64,000 bases of DNA from Candidatus Aenigmatarchaeota archaeon. Its GTDB lineage: Archaea > Aenigmatarchaeota > Aenigmatarchaeia > GW2011-AR5. The DNA is taken from NCBI GenBank assembly GCA_016180945.1, contig JACPAG010000003.1, positions 39,312 through 103,311 on the forward strand, written 5' to 3'. Each line of letters begins with the position of its first letter. The stretch's first letter is position 1. Below, piece after piece: positions 145 to 55,412 of the stretch. The notes below the pieces were generated by a model that was not told the origin of the DNA, searched no databases, and saw only the letters and a list, made by a program, of their open reading frames with translations. Both the position numbers and the translations under genes were made by a program.

Positions 145-182
145 ATGGCAATCGACTTTTTGCCGGAGCAAAGGGGATAAAT
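145..182 (+). promoter_or_regulatory. Conserved leader motif: ATGGCAATCGAC, hairpin CTTTGC-CGGA-GCAAAG, then GGGGATAA, ending 2 nt before the rps9 ATG
   Basis: Exact motif is present. An A/T box (aataat) lies directly 5'. A degenerate second copy (ATGGGATACGAGAC) sits at about 113-126. Confidence 0.6.
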
Positions 183-6323: not shown

Positions 6324-7016
6324 TCACTCTACTACACTTACCCCTTCAAATCTGTTGCCGGCAAGCTTTTCCCTGTTTATCCTTACGATTTCTTCCGGAA
6401 CCGTGGACGTCGTCGCTATGGATTCTCCAAGTTCCAGTCCTAACAGATAAGCGAACGCCGCCAGCTCTCTTCCCGACCGCATGCCCCATTTGCTTACCGC
6501 GCCCGATGTCGTTATTATTCTGGTCTCGTATTTTTTTGCAAGCTTGATGTTCTTTTTCATCGCCGACAATATGTATATCCGCCTGCGCTTGTAAGATTCC
6601 AGTATTTCCCGGAAGTTTATTTCTATCGCAACTTTATTTTCGCCGGCCGCTTTCATGCAGACATGGTCCAGTCCGCTGTCTTTCCGTCCAAGCTCAGGAT
6701 GGCAGAGGATATCAACCATGGGATTTTCACAGGCAGCACGGTTTACGTCATAATCGCCGCCGTGGACCATGATAATTTCCGCTTTGTTCCTGACGTTGCG
6801 GATTGCTTTGTCCAGCTCTGCCGCATTGCCGGATTTTATTATCACGCAAGAAACAAGGTCGATGCCTTCTATCTTCGGGAGCTGCTCAATCTTTCCATTA
6901 TAGTATCTTGCAATCCCAATGCTCCCCAGGCCAATCCGCTTTGCCGTTTCAGCCATTTCTTCTACGGTGTTCTCCCCTATCGAAAGGCTTGTATGCACAT
7001 GCAGGTCGTGAAACAT
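6324..7016 (-). CDS. rnp3: RNase P protein component 3 (Rpp30, PHP domain)
   Basis: FHDLHVHTS start and the PHP-domain histidines typical of Rpp30. Confidence 0.75.
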   Translation of the reverse strand: MFHDLHVHTSLSIGENTVEEMAETAKRIGLGSIGIARYYNGKIEQLPKIEGIDLVSCVIIKSGNAAELDKAIRNVRNKAEIIMVHGGDYDVNRAACENPMVDILCHPELGRKDSGLDHVCMKAAGENKVAIEINFREILESYKRRRIYILSAMKKNIKLAKKYETRIITTSGAVSKWGMRSGRELAAFAYLLGLELGESIATTSTVPEEIVRINREKLAGNRFEGVSVVE

Positions 7017-8811: not shown

Positions 8812-9033
8812 TCAGCGCCAAAACTTTGACTTCTCTCCTCTCAATATTTTTCTCCTTATTCTTCTTTTTCCTGTTTTCAAATCAGTATCTATAAACTCAT
8901 TTTTATCTGGGTTTCTTGGAGCCATTATTAACTTTGACTTTTCTTTTCTAACTAATTTTCTCCTTATTGTTATTTTTCCTGTTTTTATATCAATCCATTC
9001 AAACTCGCCCTTTCTTAGTTTTCTTGGAGCCAT
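8812..9033 (-). CDS. Small basic protein made of two tandem ~35-aa repeats
   Basis: MAPRKLRKGEFEWIDIKTGKITIRRKLVRKEKSKL is repeated as MAPRNPDKNEFIDTDLKTGKRRIRRKILRGEKSKF. The DNA shows a ~108-nt tandem duplication. Confidence 0.4.
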   Translation of the reverse strand: MAPRKLRKGEFEWIDIKTGKITIRRKLVRKEKSKLIMAPRNPDKNEFIDTDLKTGKRRIRRKILRGEKSKFWR

Positions 9034-11527: not shown

Positions 11528-11575
11528 GTCTATCGTCCGTTATAAGCATTCAGGATTCTTCTCAGGTCGCCTTCA

Positions 11576-11669
11576 TACAAGCGATACCACCAGTCTCGGA
11601 CTGGTGGTTCGTGGTGTAAAAAACTTTGTCGGTAATATACAATGATGCCACCGGTCTATTGACCGGTGG
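11576..11669 (+). repeat. R1 dispersed repeat, copy 1
   Basis: Shared 56-nt core (hairpin CCACCAGTCTCGGACTGGTGG) followed by its own 3' hairpin CCACCGGTC-TATT-GACCGGTGG. Starts 49 nt after the cutA stop. Confidence 0.7.
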
Positions 11670-18351: not shown

Positions 18352-18507
18352 GCCAGTTTCTTTGAATCCAAGATTTTAATAGGTTTCGCAAGAGTTAACC
18401 TTATGCCGATCATAAATAAAATGGCTACAAGCAGGATTCTAAAGAATCCTGCTGTACAGAAGGTTCGTTTCAACGAACCTTCTTGTATCGACTCGCCGAG
18501 CGAGGGG

Positions 18508-19101
18508 ATGATTATTGCAAGAGGCGCCGAAGCTGTAATCAATCTTGAGAATAACCAAATAATCAAGGAACGCATTAGAAAAGGCTACAGGCTAACGCAA
18601 TTAGATGAAACATTGCGAAAAAAGAGAAACCGCAATGAAGCCTCACTGCTTAGAGAAGCCAGGCGCGCTGGAGTAGACGTTCCGCAGATTTTAGACGAGT
18701 CAGAATTCTCGATAAAAATGGAATTTATTGGCGGCGTAAAAGTCAAGGATGCCATGAACGAAAACAACGCCGAAGAACTGGCAGAAAAAATAGCCGCCTC
18801 CGTTGCAAAGCTCCATAACAAAGGCATAGTGCACGGCGACCTGACAACATCCAATATGATAATTAAGGGCAACAATATTTTCTTCATAGATTTCGGTCTC
18901 GGCTTTTTCTCGCAAAAGGCAGAGGATATGGCAACAGATTTATACCTGCTTCACGAAGCGCTGGAATCAACCCACTTCTCAGTAATGGAAAAAGCGTGGA
19001 AAACAATATTAAATGCCTACAAGGAAGGCTTCAGCGGCGCCGACAAAGTTATTAAAACATTAGCCGAGATAGAAAAGCGGGGAAGGTACAGGGAGAGATA
19101 G
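18508..19101 (+). CDS. bud32: KEOPS complex kinase Bud32
   Basis: MIIARGAEAVI start and catalytic HGDLTTSNMI. Start moved to Met36 of the ORF-track ORF, which is preceded by GAGGGG. Confidence 0.8.
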   Translation: MIIARGAEAVINLENNQIIKERIRKGYRLTQLDETLRKKRNRNEASLLREARRAGVDVPQILDESEFSIKMEFIGGVKVKDAMNENNAEELAEKIAASVAKLHNKGIVHGDLTTSNMIIKGNNIFFIDFGLGFFSQKAEDMATDLYLLHEALESTHFSVMEKAWKTILNAYKEGFSGADKVIKTLAEIEKRGRYRER

Positions 19102-19379: not shown

Positions 19380-19566
19380 GAATGTCTTGAGAAAGCAGCA
19401 GCTTTCTGAGACATCGGGCATCAAATGGTGATGAAGTATAGCCCGAATGCATTCAAAAAGCGGAGCTTTTTGGGGCATCGAGCTATGGAAGAGGTGTTAA
19501 ATATAGCCCGAATGCATTCAAAAAGCGGAGCTTTTTGTAGCACTCTAGCCATAGGAAGGGATATCA
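19380..19566 (+). promoter_or_regulatory. rps15 leader: tandem degenerate copies of the leader motif / gene 5' end
   Basis: TATAGCCCGAATGCATTCAAAAAGCGGAGCTTTTTG occurs twice. It resembles both the gene start ATGGCTAGAATGCATTCC and the consensus motif (hairpin AAAAAGC-GGA-GCTTTTT). Confidence 0.5.
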
Positions 19567-20016
19567 ATGGCTAGAATGCATTCCCGCAAGCACGGACAGC
19601 ACGGCTCGAAAAAGCCTATCAAAAAGATAAAGGTAGACTGGCTTATCTACGATAAGGATGAAGTTGAGAAACTGATTCTTAAGCTGGCCAAGGAAGGGAA
19701 AAGTTCAGCGGAAATAGGGCTCCTGCTTCGCGACCAGTACGGCATCCCCGACGTCCGCTATTTCAAGATGCGAGTCCTTAAGGTTATTGAAAAGGACCAC
19801 AAGAAAGAAGTCCCGGAAGACCTGTACAATCTCATAAAGAAAGCCGTGAATGTCCACAAGCATATGGACTCCAACAGAAAGGACTCAAAAGGCAAGCACG
19901 GCTTGGAGCTTCTGGAATCAAAAATCCGCCGCTTAGGCAAGTACTACGCCAGGACTGGCAAGCTTCCAAAAGGCTGGAAATACAGCATAGACGAAGCAAA
20001 GCTGCTGGTGAAGTAA
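19567..20016 (+). CDS. rps15: 30S ribosomal protein S15 (uS15)
   Basis: MARMHSRKHG start and S15/S13e domain organisation. Confidence 0.9.
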   Translation: MARMHSRKHGQHGSKKPIKKIKVDWLIYDKDEVEKLILKLAKEGKSSAEIGLLLRDQYGIPDVRYFKMRVLKVIEKDHKKEVPEDLYNLIKKAVNVHKHMDSNRKDSKGKHGLELLESKIRRLGKYYARTGKLPKGWKYSIDEAKLLVK

Positions 20017-20107: not shown

Positions 20108-20227
20108 GCATGGCAATCGGCTCATAACTTGAAGGAGCGTAGCGACCAAACATTTATATGGTCGACTAACGACTGGAAGGAGCTAAAATTATTATATGGC
20201 AATCGACTTGCCGGAGGCAAGGGGATA
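20108..20227 (+). promoter_or_regulatory. Three tandem copies of the leader motif upstream of the primase gene
   Basis: ATGGCAATCGGCTCATAACTTG..., TTTATATGGTCGACTAACGACTGGAAGGAGC, and a perfect final copy ATGGCAATCGAC-TTGCC-GGA-GGCAA-GGGGATA immediately before the ATG. Confidence 0.6.
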
Positions 20228-23108: not shown

Positions 23109-23138
23109 ATGGCTATCGACTTGCGGAGCAAGGGGATA
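23109..23138 (+). promoter_or_regulatory. Leader motif copy (ATGGCTATCGAC-CTTGC-GGA-GCAAG-GGGATA) in frame with rpl44e
   Basis: Motif is present. Its upstream ATG is in frame with the gene ATG, so the ORF track shows a false 10-aa extension. Confidence 0.6.
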
Positions 23139-23446: not shown

Positions 23447-23490
23447 ATGGCATACGACTATGTCGCTCATAGCGACAGAGGGGTATTATT
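23447..23490 (+). promoter_or_regulatory. Leader motif copy (ATGGCATACGAC-TGTCGCT-CAT-AGCGACA-GAGGGGTATT)
   Basis: Nearly identical to the copy at 44826-44893. Confidence 0.6.
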
Positions 23491-26919: not shown

Positions 26920-26956
26920 ACCCTTTGTTTAAAAGCTTTTTTGTTTTACTATTCCA

Positions 26957-27040
26957 TACAAGCGAACCACCAGTTTCGGACTGGTGGTTCGTGGTGTAAA
27001 AAACTTTGTCGATGCAAAGGTTTTTCACAAAGGAAAACAG
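26957..27040 (+). repeat. R1 dispersed repeat, copy 2
   Basis: Core with 2 substitutions. Lies between the purO-purH stop and the purE 5' end. Confidence 0.7.
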
Positions 27041-27518: not shown

Positions 27519-27583
27519 TGGCAATCGACTTGCGGAGAAAAGTACCAGTATAAAATGGCACTCGACACGCGGAGCGTGGGGAG
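27519..27583 (+). promoter_or_regulatory. Two tandem leader motif copies upstream of purC
   Basis: TGGCAATCGACTTGCGGAGAAAAG..., then ATGGCACTCGAC-CACGC-GGA-GCGTG-GGGAG, then ATG. Confidence 0.55.
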
Positions 27584-28538: not shown

Positions 28539-28655
28539 CTGGCTATCGACTAGGAACAAACCGACGCAGAACAGACCGACGCAAGACAAATAGACGCACA
28601 GCAGTGCGTCAGTCTGGTTTGCGTCAAGTTGTCTTGTGTCTAGGTGTGTGGGATA
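28539..28655 (+). promoter_or_regulatory. Leader motif with a ~94-nt palindromic insert between the 5' box (CTGGCTATCGAC) and the 3' box (GTGGGATA)
   Basis: The insert contains the hairpin GACGCAC-AGCA-GTGCGTC and outer CAAACCGACG...CGTCAAGTTGTC arms, which are shared with the element at 61172-61220. Confidence 0.55.
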
Positions 28656-30023
28656 ATGACCGTTGATATTTTCGACTCCATCTCTCCATTGGACTACAGG
28701 TACAGCAGGACAGAAATAGTCAGAAAGCTTTCAAAATACCTTTCCGAGAATGCAAAAGTAAAATATCAGGCAATGGTCGAATGCGCTGCAGCAAAAGTTC
28801 TGGAGAAGGAAAGCCTCTGCCCGAAGGCAGCAGCCGAAGAGATATGCGCAGCGTGCCAGAAAATATCCGCATCGGAAGTTTACGAGGAAGAGGAAAAAAC
28901 AAAGCATGACATACGTGCATTGGCAAATTGCATAAGAAACCGCGTCAGCGAAGCCGCAAAGCCTTTCGTCCACTTCGGCCTCACGTCCTACGATGTCGTT
29001 AACACAGCAGACGCTCTGCGTTACAAGGAATGCGCAGAAGCCGTTATAATCCCGGCTTTGCTGGAGCTTGAAAAAACACTGATATCAATAGCCAGAAATG
29101 AGAAAAATACGCTGCAGATAGGCAGGACTCACGGCCAGCATGCGGAGCCGATAACGTTCGGCTTCGCGTTAGCCGAATATGTAGACCGTATCGGAAACCG
29201 GATAATCGAACTGAAAAAATCTGCAGACGGCCTGAGGGGCAAAATATCCGGCGCGGTAGGCGCTTATAATTCGCTGTCGTTGTTTTTCGGCGACCCCGAA
29301 GAATTTGAAAAAGAAGTTTTGAACGAGCTCGGCTTAAAGCCGGCGCTGCATTCAAAGCAGATTGTCGAACCCGAATTCGTTCTGGATTTTCTGCATCACA
29401 TAGTTTCCTGCTTCGGAATTCTGGCCAACCTGTCAGACGATATGCGTCATCTGCAGCGGTCCGAAATAGCCGAGGTAAGCGAAGCCTTTGGAGAAGCCCA
29501 GGTCGGTTCGTCAACAATGCCGCACAAAAGAAATCCCGTAAGCTTTGAAAATGTCAAAAGCCTGTGGAAGTCCACGATGCCGAGGCTGATGACAGTTTAC
29601 ATGGACCAGATTTCCGAGCACCAGCGCGACCTTACAAATTCAGCTTCTTCGCGTTTTATCCCGGAAATTCTGGCAGCGTTTGCAATAACCATCGAGAGGA
29701 TGAACAAGACGATGGCGAAGCTGGCTGTTGACAAGGCAGGCATGGCAAGAAATTTCGATAAGAGCAAGGATGCAATTATCGCAGAGCCGCTATATCTATT
29801 GCTCGCTTTTTACAGCCATCCGGACGCCCACGAAGCCGTGAGAAAGCTTTCTTCCGAGTCCAACCTTCTGGAACTTGCCGAGAAAAATTTCCCCGCCTAC
29901 TTCAAAAAATTCACGCCGAAACAGGTTGATATACTGAAAAACCCTCAAAAATATACGGGCCTGTCGGAAAAGAAAACCGAGGATGTCTGCAGTTCCTGGG
30001 AAAAGAAACTGGGCATAAAGTGA
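28656..30023 (+). CDS. purB: Adenylosuccinate lyase PurB
   Basis: SPLDYRYS N-terminus and the fumarate-lyase signature GSSTMPHKRNP. Start set at Met5 of the ORF-track ORF, directly after GGGATA. Confidence 0.85.
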   Translation: MTVDIFDSISPLDYRYSRTEIVRKLSKYLSENAKVKYQAMVECAAAKVLEKESLCPKAAAEEICAACQKISASEVYEEEEKTKHDIRALANCIRNRVSEAAKPFVHFGLTSYDVVNTADALRYKECAEAVIIPALLELEKTLISIARNEKNTLQIGRTHGQHAEPITFGFALAEYVDRIGNRIIELKKSADGLRGKISGAVGAYNSLSLFFGDPEEFEKEVLNELGLKPALHSKQIVEPEFVLDFLHHIVSCFGILANLSDDMRHLQRSEIAEVSEAFGEAQVGSSTMPHKRNPVSFENVKSLWKSTMPRLMTVYMDQISEHQRDLTNSASSRFIPEILAAFAITIERMNKTMAKLAVDKAGMARNFDKSKDAIIAEPLYLLLAFYSHPDAHEAVRKLSSESNLLELAEKNFPAYFKKFTPKQVDILKNPQKYTGLSEKKTEDVCSSWEKKLGIK

Positions 30024-30700
30024 AGACAAAGATTCCTATAGCTTCAGCCACAAAGCGAATGATAATTGAAACAATGACTGATGTCTCTGCTTTACCTGAG
30101 ATGATTATGGTGGCACATTCAACAAAATCTTCTATAAGAATCAAAATCCTAGCACTACGTAACCCCCTGTCGATAGAAGAAATAAAGGAAAAAAGTGCAT
30201 CCATAAAAGAAAAACTGTTTTCTATGGAAGTATTCAGGAATTCAAAAGTAGTTTTTTTCTATGTATCCGTTGGGAGTGAGGTACAGACACATGATATGAT
30301 AAAAGAAATATTGGATAAAAAAAAGGTTGCTGTTCCGATGCCGGAAAAAGCAAACAAAACCCTGTCGGCTTCGGAGTTACTTAATTTTAACGAATTAGAA
30401 CCGGGTTCTTTCTCCATACTAGAACCAAAAAAAGAATTTGTAAGAATAGTTAACCCAAAAGATTTGGATTTGGTCGTTGTTCCCGGGATAGCATTTGACA
30501 AAAAAGGGAACAGAATCGGTCACGGCCGCGGTTATTTTGACAGGTTTCTGGAAAATATATCAGTGCCAAAAATTGCCCTTGCATATGAAATGCAGATTGT
30601 AGATAACATACCGGCAGACAAAAATGATGTCGGTGTGGATTTCATTGTAACGGAAAAAAGAATTATCAGATGCGAAAAAGAAGATAAAAGAGGAAATTGA
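30020..30700 (+). CDS. 5-formyltetrahydrofolate cyclo-ligase (MTHFS)
   Basis: VPGIAFDKKGNRIGHGRGYFDRFL is the family signature. Confidence 0.7.
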   Translation: MKTKIPIASATKRMIIETMTDVSALPEMIMVAHSTKSSIRIKILALRNPLSIEEIKEKSASIKEKLFSMEVFRNSKVVFFYVSVGSEVQTHDMIKEILDKKKVAVPMPEKANKTLSASELLNFNELEPGSFSILEPKKEFVRIVNPKDLDLVVVPGIAFDKKGNRIGHGRGYFDRFLENISVPKIALAYEMQIVDNIPADKNDVGVDFIVTEKRIIRCEKEDKRGN

Positions 30701-30794
30701 TACAAGCGATACCACCAGTCTCGGACTGGTGGTTCGTGGTGTAAAAAACTTTGTCGTTAATATCAAATGATGCAAGAAGGACTTGCGAGTCCTT
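30701..30794 (+). repeat. R1 dispersed repeat, copy 3 (94 nt identical to copy 4)
   Basis: Begins the base after the MTHFS TGA. Contains a second hairpin AAGGAC-TTGCGA-GTCCTT. Confidence 0.75.
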
Positions 30795-31003
30795 CCGATG
30801 GAGACAAAGATTTTTCACATGAATCAAAAATTATCTAAGAAAGATAAACAATTTCTACTAAATATAACAATTTCCAGTAGACAATTTTTGATAACAATTT
30901 AGCAGATATCAAAAATCTTAATGGGCAATGCCAAAAATATCTTTTTGAATTATACCCAACCTTAAAAAATGAAAAATTTTACCATTAATGCAACCTAATC
31001 TAC

Positions 31004-33952: not shown

Positions 33953-35368
33953 TTACTTGTGCCTGTTAACAATCTGCTGGTAATGTCTTGCATCGTCACT
34001 TACAATATTGCTTTCGGCCAGTTTGACAAGCTCTTGGCCGAATGGCGTCGGGTATTCCCCGGTCAGGCATGCTGTGCACAGTCCCTTGAGTTGCAGCGCA
34101 TCCCGCAGCCCTTCCATAGTCTGGTATGTGAGTGAGTCAGCATTTATCGACTTGCGTATATCGTCAATCGTTTTCTCATTGGCAATCAGCTCCCCCCTTG
34201 TCGCAAAGTCGATGCCGTAGTAGCATGGCGATATCAGCGGCGGACACGTCGAGGCGAAGTGAACTTCTTTTGCCCCGTGTTTTCTTAGTATGTCGACAAT
34301 GCGCTGCGCCGTTATGCCGCGCACGATGCTGTCATCAACTATGAGGACGCTTTTGCCTTTTATCATATGCTCGTTAGCCGTATATTTTATGTAAGTGTAT
34401 GTGTGCCTGGTTTTCTGGTCCTTCATTATGAAGGTCCTGCTGTCTGCGTACCTGTTTCTGATAAGCGCTTCTATATACGGCACCCCCAGAACTTCGGCCA
34501 TTTTTATTGCAGCCGGTCTCGATGTTTCAGGCACGGCAGCAACAAAATCCGGCACGATGCCCTTTTTTATTATTTCTTTTGCCAGATTCCCGCCAAGCTT
34601 CATTCTGGCTTCGTAGACGTTTTTCCCGGCAAATGTTGATGATGGGTGGGCAAAATATACAAATTCAAACATGCAGTGTGCATGCTTTTTTTCTACCAGT
34701 ATGTCGGCTTCTACCCCGTCCTTGCTTATTATGACAAGCTCGCCCGGCTCAACCTCCCTTACAAATTCCATGTCAGGCAGATGCATTGAGATAGGTTCAG
34801 ACGACGCCATAAAATGGCTTTGGGAACCGCCGAGAAACAGCGGCCTTAAACCGTTCGGGTCCCGGAAAACGAGCAGCTTGTCGTTGAGAATGCACGTTAT
34901 AGAATAAGAGCCGTCAACGGTATTCATGAACTGCCTAATCGTGCTTTGAATATCGCCGTTATTGTCATCGAGCATCCTTGCAATAAGATACGTGATGAAT
35001 TCCGTGTCCGTAACAAAATCCTTCTTGTTTACCATGTCGGTGATTTTGTAAACGTTTGTGATGTTGCCATTGTGAGTCAGACATATTTGCCCGTAGCGTG
35101 ACTGCGCAACAAAAGGCTGCGAAACCTTTTCCATGTCGTCGTCAGCGCTTCCGGATGTCGGGTAGCGCGTAGAACCTATGCAGACATCCGTATACTGGTT
35201 TTCTATCTGCATGTTGCCAATACTGCCGGTGCATTTCTGTACCTTTATGCCGTCATTGGAAAGCCATGCAATGCCCGTCGCATCCTGTCCTCTGTGCGTC
35301 AAAAGTTGCAGGGGAAGCTGTATCTGCCTCAGGTCGACATGACCAAAAATGCCCACCACGCCGCACAT
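33953..35368 (-). CDS. purF: Amidophosphoribosyltransferase PurF
   Basis: MCGVVGI N-terminal nucleophile and a PRTase domain. Confidence 0.85.
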   Translation of the reverse strand: MCGVVGIFGHVDLRQIQLPLQLLTHRGQDATGIAWLSNDGIKVQKCTGSIGNMQIENQYTDVCIGSTRYPTSGSADDDMEKVSQPFVAQSRYGQICLTHNGNITNVYKITDMVNKKDFVTDTEFITYLIARMLDDNNGDIQSTIRQFMNTVDGSYSITCILNDKLLVFRDPNGLRPLFLGGSQSHFMASSEPISMHLPDMEFVREVEPGELVIISKDGVEADILVEKKHAHCMFEFVYFAHPSSTFAGKNVYEARMKLGGNLAKEIIKKGIVPDFVAAVPETSRPAAIKMAEVLGVPYIEALIRNRYADSRTFIMKDQKTRHTYTYIKYTANEHMIKGKSVLIVDDSIVRGITAQRIVDILRKHGAKEVHFASTCPPLISPCYYGIDFATRGELIANEKTIDDIRKSINADSLTYQTMEGLRDALQLKGLCTACLTGEYPTPFGQELVKLAESNIVSDDARHYQQIVNRHK

Positions 35369-35448
35369 GTGAAAAACCTTTGTATCGACAATGTTGCTCG
35401 TATTGAATACTTACCGATTCAATTTAAAAAGGTTTCTTTAAATAAAGC

Positions 35449-40631: not shown

Positions 40632-40689
40632 GCTTTAACAATTCCGTGAAAGAATTTATAGTTAACCAAGGAAACAAATAGGGTATTAC

Positions 40690-40865
40690 TTCCTTGGTTT
40701 ACTACACGCAGAAAACAAAGTTTTCTGGTGCACCAACTCGAGGAAAGCAAAGCTTTCCTGAGTCTCCAGAAACCTCTGTTTCTGAGAGAAAAGCTTTGCT
40801 TTTTGAGTGTATGTAAAACCAGAAATATTATATGCTTATTCTTTTCTGGTTTCACTATAAAAACG
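40690..40865 (-). repeat. R2 composite palindromic repeat, inverted copy
   Basis: Its reverse complement is near-identical to 52297-52540 across three blocks: TTTATAGTGAAACCAGAAAAGAAT...TTTCTGGTTTTACATACAC, then GGAGACTCAGGAAAGCTTTGC, then TTTCCTCGAGTTGGTGCACCAGAAAACTTTGTTTTCTGCGTGTAG. Confidence 0.7.
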
Positions 40866-40868
40866 AAT

Positions 40869-41807
40869 TTAATCTGGATTTGGATTAAATACCACATTTT
40901 CGGTATTATTTCTAAATGCATTCTCCATTAACACCTGTTCCCCAAGCTTGTCATAGCTTGTTTTTTCAAAGAAGGAAACAGCATCGTCAAATCCTTCTAT
41001 TGTATTGTTTTTTATTGTAGGGAAGCCGCTGCCGACAATTATCCCTCCCCACCCTGCTTTGTAACCCCCCGGATTCTTGAATCTTGGGCTGGGGCCAAAC
41101 CGGTTATTGATTATAGTCGGTGAGCTTCTTAGTATGTCTACGACTTCATGCCCGGAGTCATGAACCCAATTATTCTCGATTAAAATATCTGTGCTGTCGT
41201 GGATGCATATGGGGCACTCCCCGACATTGTGGAGTTCACTGTTCGTCAGGTTAGCCCCTGTCTTCAGGTCCATGGCCCTGTAATCCCTTATTTCCGCATA
41301 GGAGACGACCCCGCTTTCTATATGAAACGTGTTCCAGTCGTATCTTGTCGGCTCTGGGCTGCCTGACTTTATTAGGATTTTATTATCCCGAGTTCCGGTC
41401 GCATTCAGGAAACCTTCAATCCATATTGTAACATGGTTTTCTTCATCCCTGTAGGGCTCTCCTTGGTGAATATACTGGTCCCTTTCCTTGGCAATGCCCT
41501 TCTTCAGCCAGAAAGGAATTGTCATCAAATTGCCGGCGTCTTTATTGGCAGCAACCAGAACTTTTGTCCCCGGCTTTATTATCAGCTTGACACCCTTGGG
41601 CACTATGATGTCTCCGGCAACGCGAATCTCGCCTGACCAGACCTCATCCGAAGTTATGTAGCCGAGCCTTTCCGTATCAGCCATCTCATTTACGCTGTCC
41701 GAAGCTTTGGGGTATACCGCATCAAATGCAACCTTTCCGACGGCCGCTGCAACAGCAATAAAAACAACAGCAAAAACGGCACGGAAAATCTTTTTCCCGA
41801 CTTTCAT
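40869..41807 (-). CDS. Secreted or membrane-anchored protein with right-handed beta-helix (pectate-lyase-like) repeats
   Basis: N-terminal signal anchor and repeated GxNxxI/NN motifs. Confidence 0.45.
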   Translation of the reverse strand: MKVGKKIFRAVFAVVFIAVAAAVGKVAFDAVYPKASDSVNEMADTERLGYITSDEVWSGEIRVAGDIIVPKGVKLIIKPGTKVLVAANKDAGNLMTIPFWLKKGIAKERDQYIHQGEPYRDEENHVTIWIEGFLNATGTRDNKILIKSGSPEPTRYDWNTFHIESGVVSYAEIRDYRAMDLKTGANLTNSELHNVGECPICIHDSTDILIENNWVHDSGHEVVDILRSSPTIINNRFGPSPRFKNPGGYKAGWGGIIVGSGFPTIKNNTIEGFDDAVSFFEKTSYDKLGEQVLMENAFRNNTENVVFNPNPD

Positions 41808-42604: not shown

Positions 42605-42731
42605 GCTGAGATGGCGGAGCTTGGTCCAACGCGCAAGCCTGGAACGGCCCTTTTCTGCGGAAAAGCGCCGGCGGAAAAACGGCAAGCTTGTATGCCTCGT
42701 GCATGCGGGAGTTCAAATCTCCCTCTCAGCG
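42605..42731 (+). tRNA. tRNA-Ser(GGA) with a ~40-nt intron at the canonical 37/38 position (about 42645-42684)
   Basis: Acceptor stem GCTGAGA/TCTCAGC is perfect. U8, a 3-bp D stem, anticodon stem CAAGC/GCTTG, loop CU-GGA-A, a 16-nt variable arm (ATGC-CTCGT-GCAT), T arm GGGAG-TTCAAAT-CTCCC and discriminator G. Confidence 0.6.
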
Positions 42732-44327: not shown

Positions 44328-44359
44328 ATGGCAATCGACTTTTGCCGGAGCAAAAGGGG
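44328..44359 (+). promoter_or_regulatory. Leader motif copy (ATGGCAATCGAC-TTTTGC-CGGA-GCAAAA-GGGG) ending at the CBS gene ATG
   Basis: Exact motif. Confidence 0.6.
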
Positions 44360-44825: not shown

Positions 44826-44893
44826 ATGGCATACGACTATGGCGCTTATAGCGACAGAGGGGTATTTGGCGCTTATAGCGACAGAGGGGTATT
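44826..44893 (+). promoter_or_regulatory. Leader motif copy with an internally duplicated tail
   Basis: ATGGCATACGAC-TATGGCGCTTATAGCGACAGAGGGGTATT, then GGCGCTTATAGCGACAGAGGGGTATT repeated, then ATG. Confidence 0.6.
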
Positions 44894-46045: not shown

Positions 46046-46054
46046 ATATATTGA

Positions 46055-46148
46055 TACAAGCGATACCACCAGTCTCGGACTGGTGGTTCGTGGTGTAAAA
46101 AACTTTGTCGTTAATATCAAATGATGCAAGAAGGACTTGCGAGTCCTT
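46055..46148 (+). repeat. R1 dispersed repeat, copy 4 (identical to copy 3 over ~94 nt)
   Basis: Starts 10 nt after the antiporter stop. Confidence 0.75.
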
Positions 46149-47857: not shown

Positions 47858-48135
47858 ACATATTTTCTTTTCTGCAGAAGACGTTTGTCTTCTGAGAAAT
47901 CCAAGAAAGCTTTTGCTTTCTTAGGATTTGACTGCAAGCAGAAACCACAAGGTTTCTGATGTCTCGAAAAGCTCTGCTTTTCGCAGACAAGCTACTTTCT
48001 CCCCTTTGCTTCGCAACTCGAAGAAAGCAGAGCTTTCTTGAGTCGCCAAAATGCTTCGCATTTTGCGCGAAGTCGAGAGCCATTTTATTCTTTTCCGCAA
48101 GCGCTTTTCTTTCTAAGAAAAGGGCTTAAAGGAGC
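47858..48135. repeat. Hairpin-rich intergenic element ending in a terminator-like hairpin with T tracts
   Basis: Contains CAGAAGAC-GTTT-GTCTTCTG, GAAGAAAGC-AGA-GCTTTCTT and (AAGAAAAGGGCTT). Confidence 0.5.
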
Positions 48136-48903: not shown

Positions 48904-48935
48904 AATCCCCTAACCTTCGGTTAGTCGATAGCCAT
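48904..48935 (-). promoter_or_regulatory. Leader motif copy (ATGGCTATCGAC-CTAACC-GAA-GGTTAG-GGGATT) directly 5' of the PAC2 ATG
   Basis: Exact motif on the minus strand. Confidence 0.6.
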
Positions 48936-49160: not shown

Positions 49161-49204
49161 TTCCAAAACATCTCACCTTATAGTGAATGACATAATATTT
49201 AAGA

Positions 49205-49300
49205 CATTTTATATGTCATTTACATACACGCAAAAAGCAAAGCTTTTTGGTGCACCAGAAAACTCTATTTTCTGTGTGTAGCACGGACATCCTAATATGT
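49205..49300. repeat. Short version of the R2 repeat
   Basis: TTACATACACGCAAAAAGCAAAGCTTTTTGGTGCACCAGAAAACTCTATTTTCTGTGTGTAG. Confidence 0.6.
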
Positions 49301-49320
49301 CTGAATACTTATGTCCGATG

Positions 49321-50076
49321 CTATAGTACCTTGACTTCCGCTTCTGCGTCCGGCTTGGCCAGCGACACGATTGTGTCCATCTTTTCCAGAAACTCCTTTT
49401 CCCCTTTTTTCGCGTTTTTGGTCTTGTATTTTACCAGATATTCAGGCGCGCTTATGTACTTTACTTCCAGATTCATTTTTTCCGCCTTTGCCAGAATGTC
49501 CTTTATAATGTTTACGCCGTTTTCCTTGTAAGACCTGAGAAACAGCTTTGACGCGAATACAAACTCTTTCTGCTCGATATTCTTTTCCGCAACCTCTTTT
49601 AGCAGCGCAATCCATTTTTCGTCAATCTCTTTTTTCTTCAGCGCCTCCGTGTCGCTTAGTGCCCTTTTGAACCCTTCGTACAGCGAACCAAAACTCTCCT
49701 GAAGAAGAAATCCGATTTCGCTATAAACCTCGTCCAGTCTTTTGCCCGCCTTCTGGGCAACAATCTCCAGCATCTTCTCCGCCTTCTGGTTCAGGTTGTA
49801 TTCCTTCATCTTGTCTTTTTTTTGCTTCTCGTCAACGCGTTTCAGCGATAAACTCAGTCCTCTGTCGTCAACCCTCACGACCTTTGCTATTACGCTCTGC
49901 CCCTCCTTGATGTGGTTTCTTATGTCCCTTACCCAGCCGCTGCTTACCTCAGAGATGTGTATCATGCCTTCGGCGTCGTATTCTTCCAGCACGGCAAAAG
50001 CCGAATTCGGATTAAGCCTGCTTATTTTGCAGATTACAACCTCGCCCAGAGAAGGAAGACCGCGCTTTTTTACCAT
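49321..50076 (-). CDS. eif2a: Translation initiation factor 2 subunit alpha (aIF2-alpha)
   Basis: S1 domain LPSLGEVVICKI... and a helical/C-terminal domain. Confidence 0.85.
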   Translation of the reverse strand: MVKKRGLPSLGEVVICKISRLNPNSAFAVLEEYDAEGMIHISEVSSGWVRDIRNHIKEGQSVIAKVVRVDDRGLSLSLKRVDEKQKKDKMKEYNLNQKAEKMLEIVAQKAGKRLDEVYSEIGFLLQESFGSLYEGFKRALSDTEALKKKEIDEKWIALLKEVAEKNIEQKEFVFASKLFLRSYKENGVNIIKDILAKAEKMNLEVKYISAPEYLVKYKTKNAKKGEKEFLEKMDTIVSLAKPDAEAEVKVL

Positions 50077-50418: not shown

Positions 50419-50585
50419 AACTTATCCCTATTATGGATAATTTTCTTTCTTTTCTCAGAAGACATTCGTCTTCTGGAAACTCCAGAAAGCTTTGCAAGCG
50501 GAGAATCAGAGATTCTCCGATGCATCAATGAGCTTTGCTGGCGTTTCTTTATCCCCTAACTTCGTTAGTCGATAGCCATATTACT
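50419..50585 (-). promoter_or_regulatory. Leader motif with a ~110-nt hairpin-rich insert between the boxes
   Basis: From the distal end toward the ATG (minus strand): ATGGCTATCGAC-CTAAC-GAAG-TTAG-GGGATAAAG, then hairpins (CAGAAGAC...GTCTTCTG, GGAGAATC...GATTCTCC, GAAAGCTTTGC...), then GGGATAAGTT-ATG. Confidence 0.55.
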
Positions 50586-50824: not shown

Positions 50825-50864
50825 TATCCCCTTTGCTCCGCAAAGTCGATTGCCATATTAATAA
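50825..50864 (-). promoter_or_regulatory. Leader motif copy (TTAATATGGCAATCGAC-TTTGC-GGA-GCAAA-GGGGATA) 5' of rps27e
   Basis: Exact motif. The flanking GAGCGTAGCGACCAAACATT is also found upstream of priS at ~20135. Confidence 0.6.
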
Positions 50865-51794: not shown

Positions 51795-51945
51795 CCTTTT
51801 TCTTTAGAAAAGAAAAAGTAGCTTGTCTGTGGAAAGCAAGAGCTTTCCAAGATCTCAGAAACCAGAAGGTTTCTGCAGACAGTCAAAAAGAAAATAATAA
51901 TTTATATAATATGGCTATCGACTCTGCGAAGCAGAGGGGATGTAT
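51795..51945 (+). promoter_or_regulatory. Hairpin-rich element followed by a leader motif copy (ATGGCTATCGAC-CTCTGC-GAA-GCAGAG-GGGATGTAT) before rpl24e
   Basis: Nested hairpins GTCTG-TGGAAAGC-AAGA-GCTTTCCA...CAGAAACC-AGAA-GGTTTCTG-CAGAC, then TTTATATAAT plus the motif. Confidence 0.55.
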
Positions 51946-52296: not shown

Positions 52297-52540
52297 TAGA
52301 TAACTCCTTTTATAGTGAAACCAGAAAAGAATCGGTATATTAATTTCTGGTTTTACATACACACAAAGAAGCATAGCTTCTTCTCCAAGAGGCCAAAGGT
52401 CTCTGGAGACTCAGGAAAGCTTTGCAAGCGGAGAATCTGGGATTCTCCGATGCACCAATGAGCTTTGCTCATTGCTTGCTTTCCTCGAGTTGGTGCGCCA
52501 GAAAACTTTGTTTTCTGCGTGTAGTCAGCAAGGATGTAAT
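52297..52540 (+). repeat. R2 composite palindromic repeat, direct copy with an extra ~50-nt module
   Basis: Near-identical to the reverse complement of 40690-40865. The extra module GAAAGCTTTGCAAGCGGAGAATCTGGGATTCTCCGATGCACCAATGAGCTTTGCT also occurs at 50470-50530. Confidence 0.7.
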
Positions 52541-52594
52541 ATGCTGTTTGTTTCCTTGCATGACTATAAATTTCCAGACGATTATATATTTAAC

Positions 52595-54000: not shown

Positions 54001-54095
54001 CGCAATACCACTATTGTTATTAAACGTATAGATTTTAAATCTAACGATAAACCTATATGTTATCGGTATAAAAATAGATTTAGGACAATGTTAGA

Positions 54096-54272
54096 AATGA
54101 TGTGGCAATCGCCTCATCAAAAATTACAAACGAATGCCTATGGCATTCGTTGCATCGAAGACCAAAGGTCTTCAGTGCATCAAAAGACTTTGCGAAGTCT
54201 TCGAAGATGCTCTTGCATCTTCGAGATTCCGAAGGAACTTTGTTCCTTCGAGAACAGAGGGGAGAGGGGATT
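54096..54272 (+). promoter_or_regulatory. Leader motif (variant 5' box ATGGCAATCGCC) with a ~150-nt insert of four hairpins before GAGGGGAGAGGGGATT-ATG
   Basis: Hairpins CGAAGACC-AAA-GGTCTTC, AAAGACTT-TGCG-AAGTCTT, CGAAGATGC-TCT-TGCATCTTCG and CGAAGG-AACTTT-GTTCCTTCG. The upstream ATG is in frame, so the ORF track shows a false 57-aa extension. Confidence 0.55.
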
Positions 54273-55055
54273 ATGATTGAAATGATTTTTCTGGCGGTGC
54301 TTCTGTCTTCCATAGCGGCCTTCTGGGATTTGCTTACGACAGAAGTGCCTGATGAAATACCCGCCTTGATGATATCGTCCGGCGTTTTCTTCTGGTACAT
54401 CCGCTGGTTGAACGGCGATGCAGCCGCTTTCGTGTATTCGTTGCTGATAGGCACGGCCATTCTTGCCGCCGGTCTTGCGCTGTACAAAAGCGGCAAGTGG
54501 GGCGGCGCGGACGCGTGGATTTTGGCTGCCATTTTCTACATGGTGCCGATTGCAAATAGCAGGATTTTTCTGGTAGATTACATGTACAATCTCCTTATCG
54601 TCAGCTCTGCTTACACGATCGTATACGCCATAATTTTAGGACTCCTGAACCGGAATGTATTCCACCATTTCTTGAACGACCTCAAAGCCAATGCAAGGAT
54701 GATTTCTGTCCTGCTTATGTGTCTCGCTGCCGGCTTTGCATTAATCTACTTGTACAGACTTCCTCCTCCTTTCATCAGCATAATTATCATGTTTACATTT
54801 CTCCTGTTTTTCTGGCGGTATGCGCAAGTCATCGAGAAAACGGTCTTTACAAAAAGAATCCCCACCAGAAATCTCAAAGTTGGTGATGTTCTCCAGTCCA
54901 TGATATGGCGCGGCCTTACTTATGAGGAAGTCCGGAAAATCAGGAAACAGAAAAAGACTGTTGTCATAAAGGAAGGCATGCGTTTCGTGCCTGTGTTTCC
55001 CATAACTCTTGTAGTAACGATTGTCTACGGGAACCTGTTGTTTCTGATTTTGTGA
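54273..55055 (+). CDS. A24-family prepilin/preflagellin peptidase (PibD/FlaK-like)
   Basis: AFWDLLTTEVPDE (first catalytic Asp) and GGADAWIL (second Asp, GxGD-like). Confidence 0.55.
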   Translation: MIEMIFLAVLLSSIAAFWDLLTTEVPDEIPALMISSGVFFWYIRWLNGDAAAFVYSLLIGTAILAAGLALYKSGKWGGADAWILAAIFYMVPIANSRIFLVDYMYNLLIVSSAYTIVYAIILGLLNRNVFHHFLNDLKANARMISVLLMCLAAGFALIYLYRLPPPFISIIIMFTFLLFFWRYAQVIEKTVFTKRIPTRNLKVGDVLQSMIWRGLTYEEVRKIRKQKKTVVIKEGMRFVPVFPITLVVTIVYGNLLFLIL

Positions 55056-55079
55056 GATGGAAGAAATGATAACATTATA

Positions 55080-55230
55080 GCTGACCAACTTAGTATTTAG
55101 TATACCACAAAAGTTGGTCACATACATGGTAAAGCAGAGCTTTACCTGTACAGGAGAATCTTTGATTCTCCATGTATAGTAAACCAAGTTATAATATCGA
55201 GATTCTTTACTTGGTTAACTATAAAGCTGC
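55080..55230. repeat. Cluster of four hairpins between convergent genes
   Basis: TGACCAACTT...AAGTTGGTCA, GGTAAAGC-AGA-GCTTTACC, GGAGAATC-TTT-GATTCTCC and AACCAAGT...ACTTGGTT. Confidence 0.45.
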
Positions 55231-55412
55231 CTAAAAAAGACATCGATTCTTTTCTTAGAGTAGTTAATGATATAAAATTCATTAAAGAAGCAAAAAAAGG
55301 GGACGAAGAAATATCCAAAGGCAAATTCAAGACACTCGAACACGTAATAAAAAAATACGGAGTTCAGCGGTAGAATTCTTTGTATTTCTCCGATTTTCTT
55401 TTACCTCTTTCT

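What the first reader, a model, noticed from the sequence alone, without database searches (positions are those of the whole stretch)
28539..28655. The leader motif acts as an insertion site: large hairpin-rich inserts sit exactly between its 5' and 3' boxes
At purB (28539-28655), the tRNA-binding gene (50419-50585) and the prepilin peptidase (54096-54272), the short stem-loop is replaced by palindromic cassettes of about 94, 110 and 150 nt. The 5' box still reads TGGC(A/T)ATCG(A/C)C and the 3' box still reads GGGGAT/GGGATAA. The inserts are built from the same hairpin vocabulary seen elsewhere in the window: GAAAGC/GCTTTC, AGAAGAC/GTCTTCT, GGAGAATC/GATTCTCC. This behaves like a modular RNA structure tolerating stem extensions, as in P-element-like variable stems, or like a hotspot for palindromic mobile elements.
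Basis: seen in the sequence. Interest (0 to 1): 0.6.

Follow-up and report, generated by a model that had tools for sequence, protein, structure and literature searches.

The report
Portable hairpin leader cassette before genes
A small archaeon (Aenigmarchaeota, DPANN) carries about 15 copies per 64 kb of a 40-base hairpin cassette placed directly in front of start codons, and both the cassettes and the extra hairpins some of them carry are gained, lost and swapped between close relatives, much like the mobile promoter repeats known in bacteria.

Summary
The boxes and inserts are real, but the description is only partly right. The "leader motif" is a repeated cassette: an AT-rich TATA-like element, AUGGC, then one hairpin. 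In that hairpin, AUC of the 5' box pairs with GAU of the 3' box (GGGGAU) across a conserved GA/GG internal loop. The hairpin top is variable. This pairing is the minimum-energy fold in 9 of 10 short copies and is supported by covariation.

The window holds 15 cassettes, each ending 0-5 nt before a start codon except one orphan copy. Five carry inserts, in different places:
- hairpin top: purB, A24 peptidase and an orphan copy at 48082;
- after an intact hairpin: the tRNA-binding gene, where the stem-loop is not replaced;
- inside the 5' box, with a TA duplication: the kinase gene at 18422.

The purB insert is a stem extension, not the shared hairpin vocabulary.

Close relatives lack the whole cassette at purB, the tRNA-binding gene and A24. 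So the cassette itself is the unit that comes and goes. Whether the hairpin acts as RNA or as DNA is unresolved.

I rate it a new variant of a known kind, comparable to mobile promoters and Correia or MITE repeats.

The parts
28540..28550 (+). purB cassette: 5' box TGGCTATCGAC, preceded by AT-rich ataataatc
28551..28649 (+). purB cassette: 99-nt long imperfect hairpin made of GACGCA/TGCGTC repeats. It is a stem extension and is homologous to the S27e leader of relative L127.
28650..28658 (+). purB cassette: 3' box GGGATA plus start codon ATG (28656)
50549..50578 (-). tRNA-binding gene: complete short cassette (TGGCTATCGAC, taac-gaa-gtta, GGGGATAA)
50429..50548 (-). tRNA-binding gene: 120-nt hairpin-module insert lying after the intact hairpin. 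Positions 50472-50539 are 91% identical to 52402-52469.
50419..50428 (-). tRNA-binding gene: second 3' box GGGATAAG plus tt before ATG 50418. It is predicted to pair with UUAUCC at 50440-50435.
54088..54101 (+). A24 peptidase: left copy of a 14-nt direct repeat, ATGTTAGAAATGAT. This is the ancestral start of the gene.
54103..54113 (+). A24 cassette: 5' box variant TGGCAATCGCC
54114..54258 (+). A24 cassette: five tandem perfect hairpins (54129-54151, 54157-54173, 54184-54201, 54201-54224, 54230-54250)
54259..54272 (+). A24 cassette: tandem 3' boxes GGGGAGA and GGGGATT
54273..54286 (+). A24 peptidase: right copy of the direct repeat, ATGATTGAAATGAT. This is the present start of the gene.
18422..18509 (+). 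Kinase (RIO/Bud32-type) cassette with a split 5' box: TGGCTA, then a 58-nt two-hairpin insert (18428-18485), then TATCGAC. TA is duplicated on both sides of the insert. An intact hairpin and GGGGAT follow; the start codon is ATG 18508.
47996..48082 (-). Orphan cassette: TGGCTCTCGAC, two hairpins, GGGGAGA. No gene start follows it.
146..182 (+). Short cassette before S9, inside the L18e-L13-S9-RpoN operon
20197..20227 (+). Short cassette before the primase gene, with two decayed copies stacked upstream (20111, 20170)
23110..23138 (+). Short cassette before L44e
23448..23490 (+). Variant cassette TGGCATACGAC ... GGGGTAT before an EMC3-like gene. Both base pairs are swapped relative to the canonical form.
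27519..27583 (+). Double cassette before purC: a truncated older copy plus TGGCACTCGAC ... GGGGAG
44329..44359 (+). Short cassette before a CBS-domain gene
44827..44893 (+). Variant cassette before the Na/H exchanger gene, with its 3' half duplicated
48904..48934 (-). Short cassette before PAC2
50825..50855 (-). Short cassette before S27e. The ortholog in relative L127 carries the long form.
51912..51945 (+). Short cassette before L24e

Best explanation
The three sites are long versions of a repeated expression cassette about 40 nt long. The cassette is specific to one genus-level Aenigmarchaeota lineage and sits directly in front of start codons.

Layout: a BRE/TATA-like AT-rich element, the invariant AUGGC, then a hairpin. 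The base of the hairpin is the 5' box (A/C/U-U-C) paired with the 3' box (G-A-U/G of the Shine-Dalgarno-like GGGGAU). A conserved 2x2 internal loop (GA opposite GG) and a C-G pair follow, then a free apical stem with a GNA-type loop.

The cassette supplies the gene's ribosome-binding site and probably a promoter. The hairpin keeps part of GGGGAU paired, and so tunes translation initiation or 5'-end stability. This functional step is inferred.

The top and the edges of the hairpin carry no sequence constraint, so extra material accumulates there. It is of two kinds:
(i) paired stem extensions, as at purB and at S27e in the relative;
(ii) tandem perfect-hairpin modules of 26-29 nt, from a genome-wide intergenic repeat family, as at the tRNA-binding gene, A24, the kinase gene and 48082.

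Cassettes, with or without inserts, are gained, lost, stacked and exchanged between genes and between related genomes. The inserts are best seen as passengers in an evolutionarily mobile leader, not as insertions into a fixed one.
For: Structure:
- The same fold is the minimum-energy fold in 9 of 10 short copies, with z about -3.
- A covariance model built from 5 copies finds 11 short copies in the window and 7 in close relatives, at E from 4e-12 to 0.011.
- On 16 copies, 92% of cells are paired against 72% in shuffles. The covariation score is 0.445 against 0.116 (0 of 500 shuffles reach it), and slid registers give at most 0.117. The box-to-box pairs change on both sides: AU 9, CG 4, UA 2; and UA 14, AU 2.

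Placement:
- Every short copy is co-oriented with a Pfam-supported gene and ends 0-5 nt before its ATG.
- Some sit inside conserved operons: L13|S9 and purC|purB.

Promoter-like part:
- A weight matrix from 9 leaderless promoters of the window (TTTATAAA, 21 nt, ATG) places a TATA-like element directly against TGGC in most cassettes.

Turnover:
- purC and purB are 7 nt apart or overlapping in relatives with 86% and 80% identity.
- The tRNA-binding gene of the roughly 80% relative has no cassette.
- The A24 gene of the 92% and 78% relatives starts 88-91 nt after the neighbouring gene with no cassette. The window instead has the cassette between 14-nt direct repeats of the gene's start.
- The same double cassette precedes purC in the window and PAC2 in a 92% relative.
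- The purB long leader aligns end to end with the relative's S27e leader, differing by matched indels in both arms.
- Decayed copies are stacked upstream of live ones.

Inserts as a separate family:
- The window has 175 perfect hairpin hits (one hairpin can be listed several times) against 25 in shuffles. They cluster in about 12 intergenic arrays.
- The tRNA-binding insert is 91% identical to an array at 52402, which lies in the opposite orientation relative to its gene.
- A 58-nt two-hairpin unit splits the kinase gene's 5' box, with a TA duplication.
Against: - No transcription start data exist. If the TATA-like element against the box is the active promoter, transcription would begin around position +21, inside the apical hairpin. 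The primary transcript would then lack the 5' box and could not form the RNA hairpin.
- The stems are almost purely Watson-Crick (about 2-3% G-U pairs), and sense and antisense strands fold about equally well. That fits a DNA palindrome as well as an RNA structure.
- The copies are related by duplication, so the covariation counts overstate the number of independent events. There may be only 3-4.
- The alignment used for counting was fitted to the model.
- No mobilising enzyme was found among the roughly 40 window proteins scanned with Pfam.
- Flanking duplications are inconsistent (TA, 7 nt, 14 nt).
- One copy lies antisense inside a tRNA intron of a distant relative. That cannot be a leader.
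Confidence: 0.55

Rival explanations
1. The cassette is a selfish DNA palindrome of the REP or MITE type. The hairpin is a single-stranded-DNA or cruciform structure recognised by a mobilising enzyme acting in trans. The cassettes and hairpin modules have no role in expression. They sit before genes only because AT-rich promoter regions are where they insert or are tolerated.
For: - The stems are nearly all Watson-Crick and fold equally on both strands.
- The cassette has a conserved unpaired 5' motif (AUGGC) and a conserved internal mismatch, as in REP and IS200/IS605 end hairpins. This comparison is from my own knowledge.
- Cassettes show presence/absence at orthologous sites.
- Decayed copies are stacked upstream of live ones.
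- Flanking duplications are seen: TA, 7 nt and 14 nt.
- An antisense copy lies in a tRNA intron.
- The family is restricted to one lineage: absent from 15 of 16 loci of relatives at 47-66% identity.
Against: - All short copies in the window and in close relatives are co-oriented with a gene and in register with it. GGGGAU stands where the ribosome-binding site should be, 0-5 nt from the ATG.
- These genes have no other Shine-Dalgarno-like sequence.
- Copies inside conserved operons have not disrupted them.
- No transposase was found in the window.
- Most hairpin modules are unique in sequence, not recent copies.
Confidence: 0.2
2. The cassette is a portable archaeal promoter whose palindrome acts in DNA. 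The 5' box lies at -21 to -11 and the apical palindrome spans the region melted at initiation. The transcript starts at about +21 and carries only a 7-13 nt leader with GGGGAU. In long forms, transcription starts inside the insert, which then becomes a structured 5' untranslated region.
For: - A weight matrix from leaderless promoters puts the best or second-best TATA hit at a fixed position against the box. In 15 of 22 cassettes this predicts a start at +19 to +23.
- A BRE-like AAAC/AAAA lies 2-3 nt upstream of the TATA-like element, as in leaderless promoters of the window.
- In all long forms except the kinase gene, the 5' box stays with the AT-rich element and the 3' box stays with the ATG.
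- The apical loops are C(GNA)G triloops such as GCGAAGC, which are very stable as DNA mini-hairpins. This point is from my own knowledge.
Against: - Covariation between the 5' box and the 3' box, and retention of that pairing across 87-166 nt inserts, have no obvious use in double-stranded promoter DNA.
- At the kinase gene the box is split from the TATA-like element by 58 nt, yet the hairpin half is intact.
- The weight-matrix scores are modest: 4-12 bits, against 9-16 for the training set.
Confidence: 0.15
3. The motif is a vertically inherited riboregulator: a binding site for a global translation factor or an RNA thermometer, with a variable P-element-like stem. The inserts are ordinary lineage-specific stem expansions.
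For: - The fold is conserved, covaries, and partly sequesters a Shine-Dalgarno-like sequence.
- The internal loop GA/GG is invariant.
- The cassette occurs before ribosomal protein and other housekeeping genes.
- S27e carries short and long forms with the same boxes.
Against: - Orthologous genes in relatives at 80-93% identity lack it.
- Flanks upstream of the boxes are unrelated between orthologs.
- The same cassette variant precedes different genes in different genomes.
- It matches no Rfam family, even at E of 0.5 or below.
- It is essentially absent from more distant Aenigmarchaeota.
Confidence: 0.07
4. AUGGCNAUCGAC opens a short upstream reading frame (Met-Ala-Ile-Asp...). Translating it unfolds the hairpin and hands ribosomes to the main start codon by termination-reinitiation.
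For: - The AUG is invariant in all short copies.
- The variable box positions are synonymous or conservative changes (GCA/GCT/GCG; ATC/ATT/CTC).
- In S27e and primase the frame ends at the TAA that overlaps the main ATG (TAATG). At A24 the old start codon's frame ends at a TGA overlapping the new ATG.
Against: - Frame and stop position differ among copies: a stop after 4 codons at PAC2 and the tRNA-binding gene, in-frame fusion at L44e, and out-of-frame overlap at purC, L24e and CBS.
- The purB, A24 and 27519 copies have CTG or GTG in place of ATG.
- The same positions are equally explained by being unpaired or covarying in the hairpin.
Confidence: 0.03

Closest known systems
Correia repeat enclosed elements (CREE) of Neisseria, a MITE
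   Same: Both are short, palindromic and present in many copies. Both lie mostly just upstream of genes and can provide promoters. Both are co-transcribed into hairpins that affect mRNA fate, and both show presence/absence between strains (PMC2649163; PMC10969869). One hairpin unit here has a TA duplication; TA is the Correia target duplication, as far as I recall.
   Different: Correia elements are 100-155 bp with 26-bp terminal inverted repeats and sigma-70 promoters, and they insert in both orientations. The cassette here is about 40 nt and has only a 3-4 bp terminal pairing. It is archaeal (TATA-like), always co-oriented, and ends in register with the start codon, where it supplies the Shine-Dalgarno-like sequence.
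Putative mobile promoters / promoter reuse in prokaryotes
   Same: In both, highly similar upstream regions stand in front of unrelated genes and are shared between related genomes. They sometimes carry RNA motifs (PMC3575422). That is the pattern seen for the double cassette at purC in the window and PAC2 in the relative.
   Different: Those were defined by sequence similarity alone, mostly in bacteria, with no common structure. Here there is a defined hairpin with covariation and a fixed register to the start codon, in a DPANN archaeon.
REP / BIME elements and REPINs with RAYT transposases
   Same: Both are imperfect palindromes with a conserved unpaired 5' motif and a conserved mismatch. 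Both have many intergenic copies, are lineage-specific, and form populations inside a genome (PMC8049555).
   Different: REPs lie mostly between convergent genes or at 3' ends, in both orientations, often as inverted pairs. They depend on a RAYT gene. No such gene was seen in the window, and the cassettes are strictly 5' of genes.
Pneumococcal BOX elements (boxA, a variable number of boxB, boxC); from my own knowledge
   Same: Both have a modular build: conserved end modules enclose a variable number of tandem hairpin-forming modules, lie in intergenic regions, and can affect expression. This is closest to the hairpin arrays and to the composite elements at 40650-40880, 49170-49330, 52300-52535 and 55060-55235.
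   Different: BOX modules are conserved in sequence. Here each hairpin is a different perfect palindrome of a shared style (CARAARRC, 3-4 nt, GYYTTYTG).
RNA thermometers that sequester the Shine-Dalgarno sequence (ROSE, fourU); from my own knowledge
   Same: Both are a hairpin immediately 5' of the start codon that pairs part of the Shine-Dalgarno sequence and contains conserved non-canonical pairs that weaken the helix.
   Different: Thermometers control heat-shock or virulence genes and are inherited with them. This hairpin precedes housekeeping genes of every kind and is not conserved at orthologous genes.

Membership tests
Any described RNA family (Rfam 15) | Match to a curated covariance model | tested here: not met
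   Only a tRNA was found in the window, both at gathering scores and at E of 0.5 or below. Nothing else was found in L127 or L137.
Conserved cis-regulatory leader (riboswitch, ribosomal-protein leader, T-box type) | Present at orthologous genes in related genomes | tested here: not met
   Absent at purB, the tRNA-binding gene and A24 in relatives at 78-93% identity. Found in only 1 of 16 loci from relatives at 47-66% identity, and there inside a tRNA intron.
Conserved cis-regulatory leader (riboswitch, ribosomal-protein leader, T-box type) | Secondary structure supported by compensatory changes | tested here: met
   7 of 10 pairs change on both sides. The covariation score is 0.445 against 0.116 in shuffles and at most 0.117 in slid registers. 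Caveat: the copies are paralogous and the alignment was fitted to the model.
MITE (miniature inverted-repeat transposable element) | Terminal inverted repeats | tested here: inconclusive
   The cassette has only AUC...GAU plus its inner stem. Hairpin-module units end in CA...TG or CAAG...CTTG, but that symmetry follows from being tandem palindromes.
MITE (miniature inverted-repeat transposable element) | Target-site duplication of constant length | tested here: inconclusive
   The duplications are TA at 18426/18486, 7 nt (GGGATAA) at the tRNA-binding gene, and 14 nt with 11 of 14 identical at A24. The lengths are not consistent.
MITE (miniature inverted-repeat transposable element) | Empty and filled sites in related genomes | tested here: met
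   purC|purB, S27e|tRNA-binding gene and UPPS|A24 are filled in the window and empty in relatives. purB|MTHFS and tRNA-binding gene|eIF2a are filled in the relative and empty in the window.
MITE (miniature inverted-repeat transposable element) | A related autonomous element or transposase in the genome | not testable with these tools
   None was found among the roughly 40 window proteins scanned with Pfam. The rest of the genome could not be read.
REP / RAYT system | RAYT (Y1 transposase) gene, and copies in both orientations, often as inverted pairs | tested here: not met
   No such gene was found in the window. All cassettes are single and co-oriented with the downstream gene.
Kink-turn (L7Ae site) | 3-nt bulge followed by tandem sheared G-A and A-G pairs | tested here: not met
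   The internal loop is a symmetric 2x2 loop, GA opposite GG, with no bulge.
Bulge-helix-bulge intron (archaeal splicing endonuclease substrate) | Two 3-nt bulges on opposite strands separated by a 4-bp helix | tested here: not met
   The predicted folds of short and long forms show a symmetric 2x2 loop only.
RNA thermometer | Shine-Dalgarno sequence paired in a weak hairpin with non-canonical pairs | tested here: met
   The G1', G4', A5' and U6' positions of GGGGAU are paired and G2' and G3' lie in the internal loop. The base helix is only 3 bp.
RNA thermometer | Temperature-dependent melting that controls translation | not testable with these tools
   This needs experiments.
Archaeal core promoter | BRE/TATA at the distance from the transcription start seen in the same genome | tested here: inconclusive
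   A TATA-like element abuts the box in most copies, at a fixed position. Scores are modest and no transcription start is known.

The most novel reading that the evidence does not exclude
The cassette is a self-propagating promoter plus ribosome-binding-site module of DPANN archaea. It integrates at or next to start codons, including inside operons and inside older copies of itself, by a hairpin-directed mechanism that has no known enzyme. The tandem hairpin modules would be a second, dependent layer of mobile DNA that uses the cassettes as landing sites; the TA duplication at the split box points that way. A streamlined symbiont genome would then be rewiring the expression of housekeeping genes with its own mobile leaders.
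Probability: 0.2. Interest if true: 0.8.

Novelty: new variant of a known kind. Interest (0 to 1): 0.55.

Why it matters
DPANN archaea have very small genomes and are usually thought to carry few repeats. In this window, about one gene in six has its start region supplied by one repeated hairpin cassette, including ribosomal protein genes, primase and purine synthesis genes. Close relatives differ in which genes carry it.

If the cassette is a working promoter and ribosome-binding-site unit, three things follow:
- It would be a natural portable expression module for archaea.
- It would show that regulatory rewiring by mobile leaders, known from Neisseria and other bacteria, also operates in archaea.
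- It would give a compact, testable case of a partly sequestered Shine-Dalgarno sequence in an organism that otherwise uses leaderless mRNAs.

There are also practical consequences. The repeats break short-read assemblies. They can also extend called genes upstream, because reading frames run open through the cassettes.

Tried and rejected
The pattern was too short for 596 Gb, so the scan was wasted.
- Alignment A2 contains three sequences I edited by hand to coax the aligner. It was discarded and is not used as evidence. Model R1 was built from five genuine sequences (A3).
- MAFFT alone mis-aligned the 3' box (A1).
- The upstream-ORF reading was rejected because the frames are inconsistent.
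- Kink-turn and bulge-helix-bulge readings were rejected on loop geometry.
- A G-U versus A-C strand test, meant to tell RNA from DNA structure, was uninformative. The stems are almost purely Watson-Crick.
- Viral contigs hold none of the cassette, the GACGCA hairpin core or the GGAGAATC array segment.
- The search for same-species variants of the tRNA-binding leader failed because the Logan contigs end inside the repeats.
- The A24 protein as I delimited it is not on record.
- JGI metagenomes hold only relatives at 66% identity or less, and almost none of them has the cassette.
- Two literature searches on Aenigmarchaeota or DPANN leaders found nothing relevant.
Full report
**Source and context.** The window comes from a Candidatus Aenigmarchaeota (DPANN) metagenome-assembled genome. 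Its adenylosuccinate lyase is 100% identical to an NCBI MAG protein on a 182,911-bp contig. The one tRNA gene carries an intron. No transposase was found among the roughly 40 window proteins scanned. They are housekeeping genes, including a large purine-synthesis cluster.

**The motif is real.** TGGCWATCGMC with up to one mismatch occurs 18 times, against 3.6 expected, and 0 of 100 shuffles reached 18. Laid out in gene orientation, the copies read:
- an AT-rich stretch such as ATAATA or TATAAAA;
- TGGC[A/T]ATCGAC;
- a 4-7 bp stem with a GGA, GAA or CGGA loop;
- GGGGAT;
- 0-5 nt and then ATG.

The downstream genes are unrelated to each other: S9, primase, L44e, an EMC3-like protein, purC, purB, a CBS protein, a Na/H exchanger, PAC2, the tRNA-binding protein, S27e, L24e, the A24 peptidase and a RIO/Bud32-type kinase. 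That is 15 cassettes for about 84 genes. One of the 15, at 48082, is an orphan with no gene start after it.

**What the two boxes are.** They are the two strands of one helix. In 9 of 10 short copies the minimum-energy fold has four features (z about -3):
- A6-U7-C8 of the 5' box pairs with G4'-A5'-U6' of GGGGAU.
- G9-A10 faces G2'-G3' in a 2x2 internal loop.
- C11 pairs with G1'.
- The variable stem-loop caps the structure.

A covariance model built from five genuine copies (A3, R1) finds 11 short copies in the window, 5 in L127, 1 in L129 and 1 in L132. On the 16 best copies:
- 92% of cells are paired, against 72% in shuffles.
- The covariation score is 0.445 against 0.116 (0 of 500 shuffles reach it).
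- Sliding the register drops the score to 0.117 or less.

The two box-to-box pairs change on both sides. One is A-U in 9 copies, C-G in 4 and U-A in 2; the other is U-A in 14 and A-U in 2. Concretely, TGGCACTCGAC goes with GGGGAG, and TGGCATACGAC goes with GGGGTAT. Two caveats apply. The copies are paralogues, so the independent events are few. The alignment was also fitted to the model.

Other genes in the window have GGTGAT before their starts, for example at 7016, 56432 and purE. So GGGGAU is a cassette-specific version of the ribosome-binding site, and the hairpin partly sequesters it.

**The three named sites.**

*purB.* The box is at 28540-28550. A 99-nt insert follows, then GGGATA and the ATG at 28656. 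The insert is one long imperfect hairpin made of GACGCA/TGCGTC repeats and contains none of the listed hairpin words. With the base helix enforced, the fold costs 2.3 kcal/mol more than the minimum (-41.9 against -44.2). The spacer is identical in two independent Logan assemblies.

*tRNA-binding gene.* A complete short cassette is intact at 50578-50549. A 120-nt insert follows it, and then a second GGGATAAG. The stem-loop is therefore not replaced, and GGGATAA flanks the insert as a direct repeat. The second box is predicted to pair with a UUAUCC just upstream. Part of the insert (50472-50539) is 91% identical to an array at 52402-52469, which lies in the opposite orientation relative to its own downstream gene.

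*A24 peptidase.* The box variant TGGCAATCGCC is followed by five tandem perfect hairpins and then GGGGAGAGGGGATT. The minimum-energy fold keeps an AAUC/GAUU base helix.

- An orphan cassette at 48082-47996 has two hairpins at its top and no gene after it. The relative has a 209-residue gene at that position.
- The kinase gene has a split 5' box: TGGCTA, a 58-nt two-hairpin unit (18428-18485), then TATCGAC. The normal hairpin and GGGGATG follow. TA is present on both sides of the unit, as expected for an insertion with a 2-bp duplication into TGGC-TA-TCGAC.

Across the five long forms, the extra material therefore sits in three different places: at the top of the hairpin, after it, or inside the 5' box.

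*purB.* In a relative with 86% identity (L003), purC and purB are 7 nt apart. In GCA_053537215.1 (80% identity, L004) they overlap. Neither has any box. That second genome instead has a long cassette between purB and the next gene, where the window's genes overlap.

*tRNA-binding gene.* In the syntenic contig of the same relative (L127), the gene has an unrelated 119-nt upstream region with no cassette. A 112-nt spacer absent from the window follows the gene.

*A24.* Relatives with 92% and 78% nucleotide identity (L130, L131) have no cassette. Their gene starts ATGCTCGAAATGATTTTT, 88-91 nt after the neighbouring gene. In the window the cassette lies between ATGTTAGAAATGAT (54088-54101) and ATGATTGAAATGAT (54273-54286). 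This is a 14-nt direct repeat of the gene's own start, 11 of 14 identical. The more distant GCA_053537215.1 (about 70% identity, L132) has the identical left repeat and an identical 52-nt upstream segment, but different material after it. This suggests the allele has moved by recombination.

*S27e.* The window has the short form. L127 has ATGGCGATCGAC, an 87-nt top and GGGGATAATG. That long leader aligns end to end with the window's purB leader, differing by matched indels in the two arms, which is a stem extension.

*PAC2.* The window, L127 and a 92% relative (L129) all have short cassettes, but they are different family members. L129's double cassette is the one that precedes purC in the window.

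*Stacking.* Decayed cassettes are stacked upstream of live ones at S9, primase, purC, PAC2 and several genes of the relative. Tandem 3' boxes occur downstream.

The whole cassette is what varies.

**Spread.** The cassette was found in the window genome, in GCA_053537215.1 and in one ENA contig (L129). It was not found in L003 or L005, nor in 15 of 16 JGI loci from relatives at 47-66% identity. The single distant hit (L137, 35 bits) lies antisense inside the intron of a tRNA-Ser(GGA) gene. Rfam has no match and viral contigs have none.

**The hairpin arrays.** The window has 175 perfect hairpin hits of 7 bp or more with 3-8 nt loops, against 25 in shuffles. One hairpin can be listed several times in that count. 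They cluster in about 12 intergenic arrays of 8-11 bp stems in the style CARAARRC, 3-4 nt, GYYTTYTG. Most are unique in sequence, and a few pairs are 81-91% identical. Four arrays lie in or against cassettes, against 0.85 expected. The binomial p is about 0.008, based on my own rough delimitation. Others lie inside larger composite elements or upstream of promoters.

**RNA or DNA?** This is unresolved.

*For RNA:*
- covariation between the boxes;
- the base helix is kept across long inserts;
- the hairpin is intact where the box is split from the AT-rich element.

*For DNA:*
- The stems have almost no G-U pairs, and both strands fold about equally well.
- A weight matrix from nine leaderless promoters of this window (TTTATAAA, 21 nt, ATG) places a TATA-like element directly against TGGC in most cassettes. 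This predicts a start at +19 to +23, inside the apical stem.

At stacked cassettes both could hold. The older copy's TATA would start transcription just upstream of the younger copy's hairpin.

**Comparison with known systems.** The closest analogues are:
- bacterial mobile promoters (PMC3575422);
- Correia elements (PMC2649163; PMC10969869);
- REP/REPIN repeats (PMC8049555);
- for the arrays, the modular BOX elements (from my own knowledge).

The cassette differs from all of them. It is archaeal, about 40 nt long, always co-oriented, and in register with the start codon, where it supplies the ribosome-binding site inside a covarying hairpin.

**Rating.** I rate it a new variant of a known kind, of moderate to good interest. 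The mechanism of spread and the level at which the hairpin acts remain open.

Noticed in passing
window 11574-11648, 26955-27011, 30696-30794, 46050-46148: Four copies, 96-100% identical, of a 57-99 nt element lie just after gene ends. The element reads ACAAGCGATACCACCAGTCTCGGACTGGTGGTTCGTGGTGTAAAAAACTTTGTCG and contains a 10-12 bp hairpin. It has no Rfam match. It could be a small RNA, a terminator or another repeat family.
   Followed up: partly
window 27002-27029 and 35368-35395 (inverted); similar at about 30800-30814: GTCGAT(G/A)CAAAGGTTTTTCAC is shared upstream of purE and purF, and a similar sequence lies before an ATG near 30815. It is a possible common operator or leader of the purine genes.
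   Followed up: no
window about 40650-40880 (-), 49170-49330, 52300-52535, 55060-55235: These are composite elements with the layout TTTATAGTG, a hairpin, ACATACAC, a hairpin array, GTGTAGT, a hairpin, ACTATAAA. The outer inverted repeats look like TATA boxes facing outward. Two copies (52308-52572 and 40862-40653) are 87-89% identical, running into the start of the adjacent genes.
   Followed up: partly
L137 11923-12053 (-), compared with window 42605-42731: The tRNA-Ser(GGA) gene of a distant relative carries a 48-nt intron at the canonical position. That intron contains a complete leader cassette in antisense (35 bits, E = 2e-6). The window's own tRNA-Ser intron has a different small hairpin.
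   Followed up: partly
window, e.g. starts at 33814(-), 63148(-), 63199, 25216, 40631(-), 18351(-), 11968(-), 22438(-), 42844: At least nine genes have TTTATAAA-like boxes ending 21-23 nt before the ATG, which implies leaderless mRNAs. The genome therefore seems to mix leaderless genes, cassette-led genes and GGTGAT-led genes inside operons.
   Followed up: partly
window 18403-18507, 23109-23138, 54102-54272: Reading frames stay open through the cassettes and their hairpin inserts, in frame with the real gene (kinase, L44e, A24). Gene callers can therefore add false N-terminal extensions beginning MAID. At A24 the old start codon opens a 62-codon frame that ends at a TGA overlapping the new ATG.
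   Followed up: partly
window 54046-54101, compared with L132 1953-2018 and L130: A 52-nt segment upstream of the A24 cassette is identical to a genome whose flanking genes are only about 70-75% identical. It differs from a genome whose flanks are 92% identical. This looks like a short recombination or transfer tract carrying the cassette allele.
   Followed up: partly
window 19437-19472 = 19502-19537; 44840-44866 = 44867-44893; 8822-8884 and 8930-8992 (84%): These are local tandem duplications in intergenic regions. They include the 3' half of the Na/H exchanger cassette and a hairpin unit before the gene at 19567.
   Followed up: no
L125, L126, L159, L160 (Logan contigs of the same species): Short-read contigs end exactly at cassettes or hairpin arrays, 10-52 nt before the gene. 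The repeats therefore break assemblies, and such regions may be under-represented in MAGs.
   Followed up: no
window apical loops, e.g. 51925-51931 GCGAAGC and 50837-50831 GCGGAGC: The cassette tops are C(GNA)G triloops. GCGAAGC is, as far as I recall, an unusually stable DNA mini-hairpin, which may bear on whether the structure acts in DNA.
   Followed up: no
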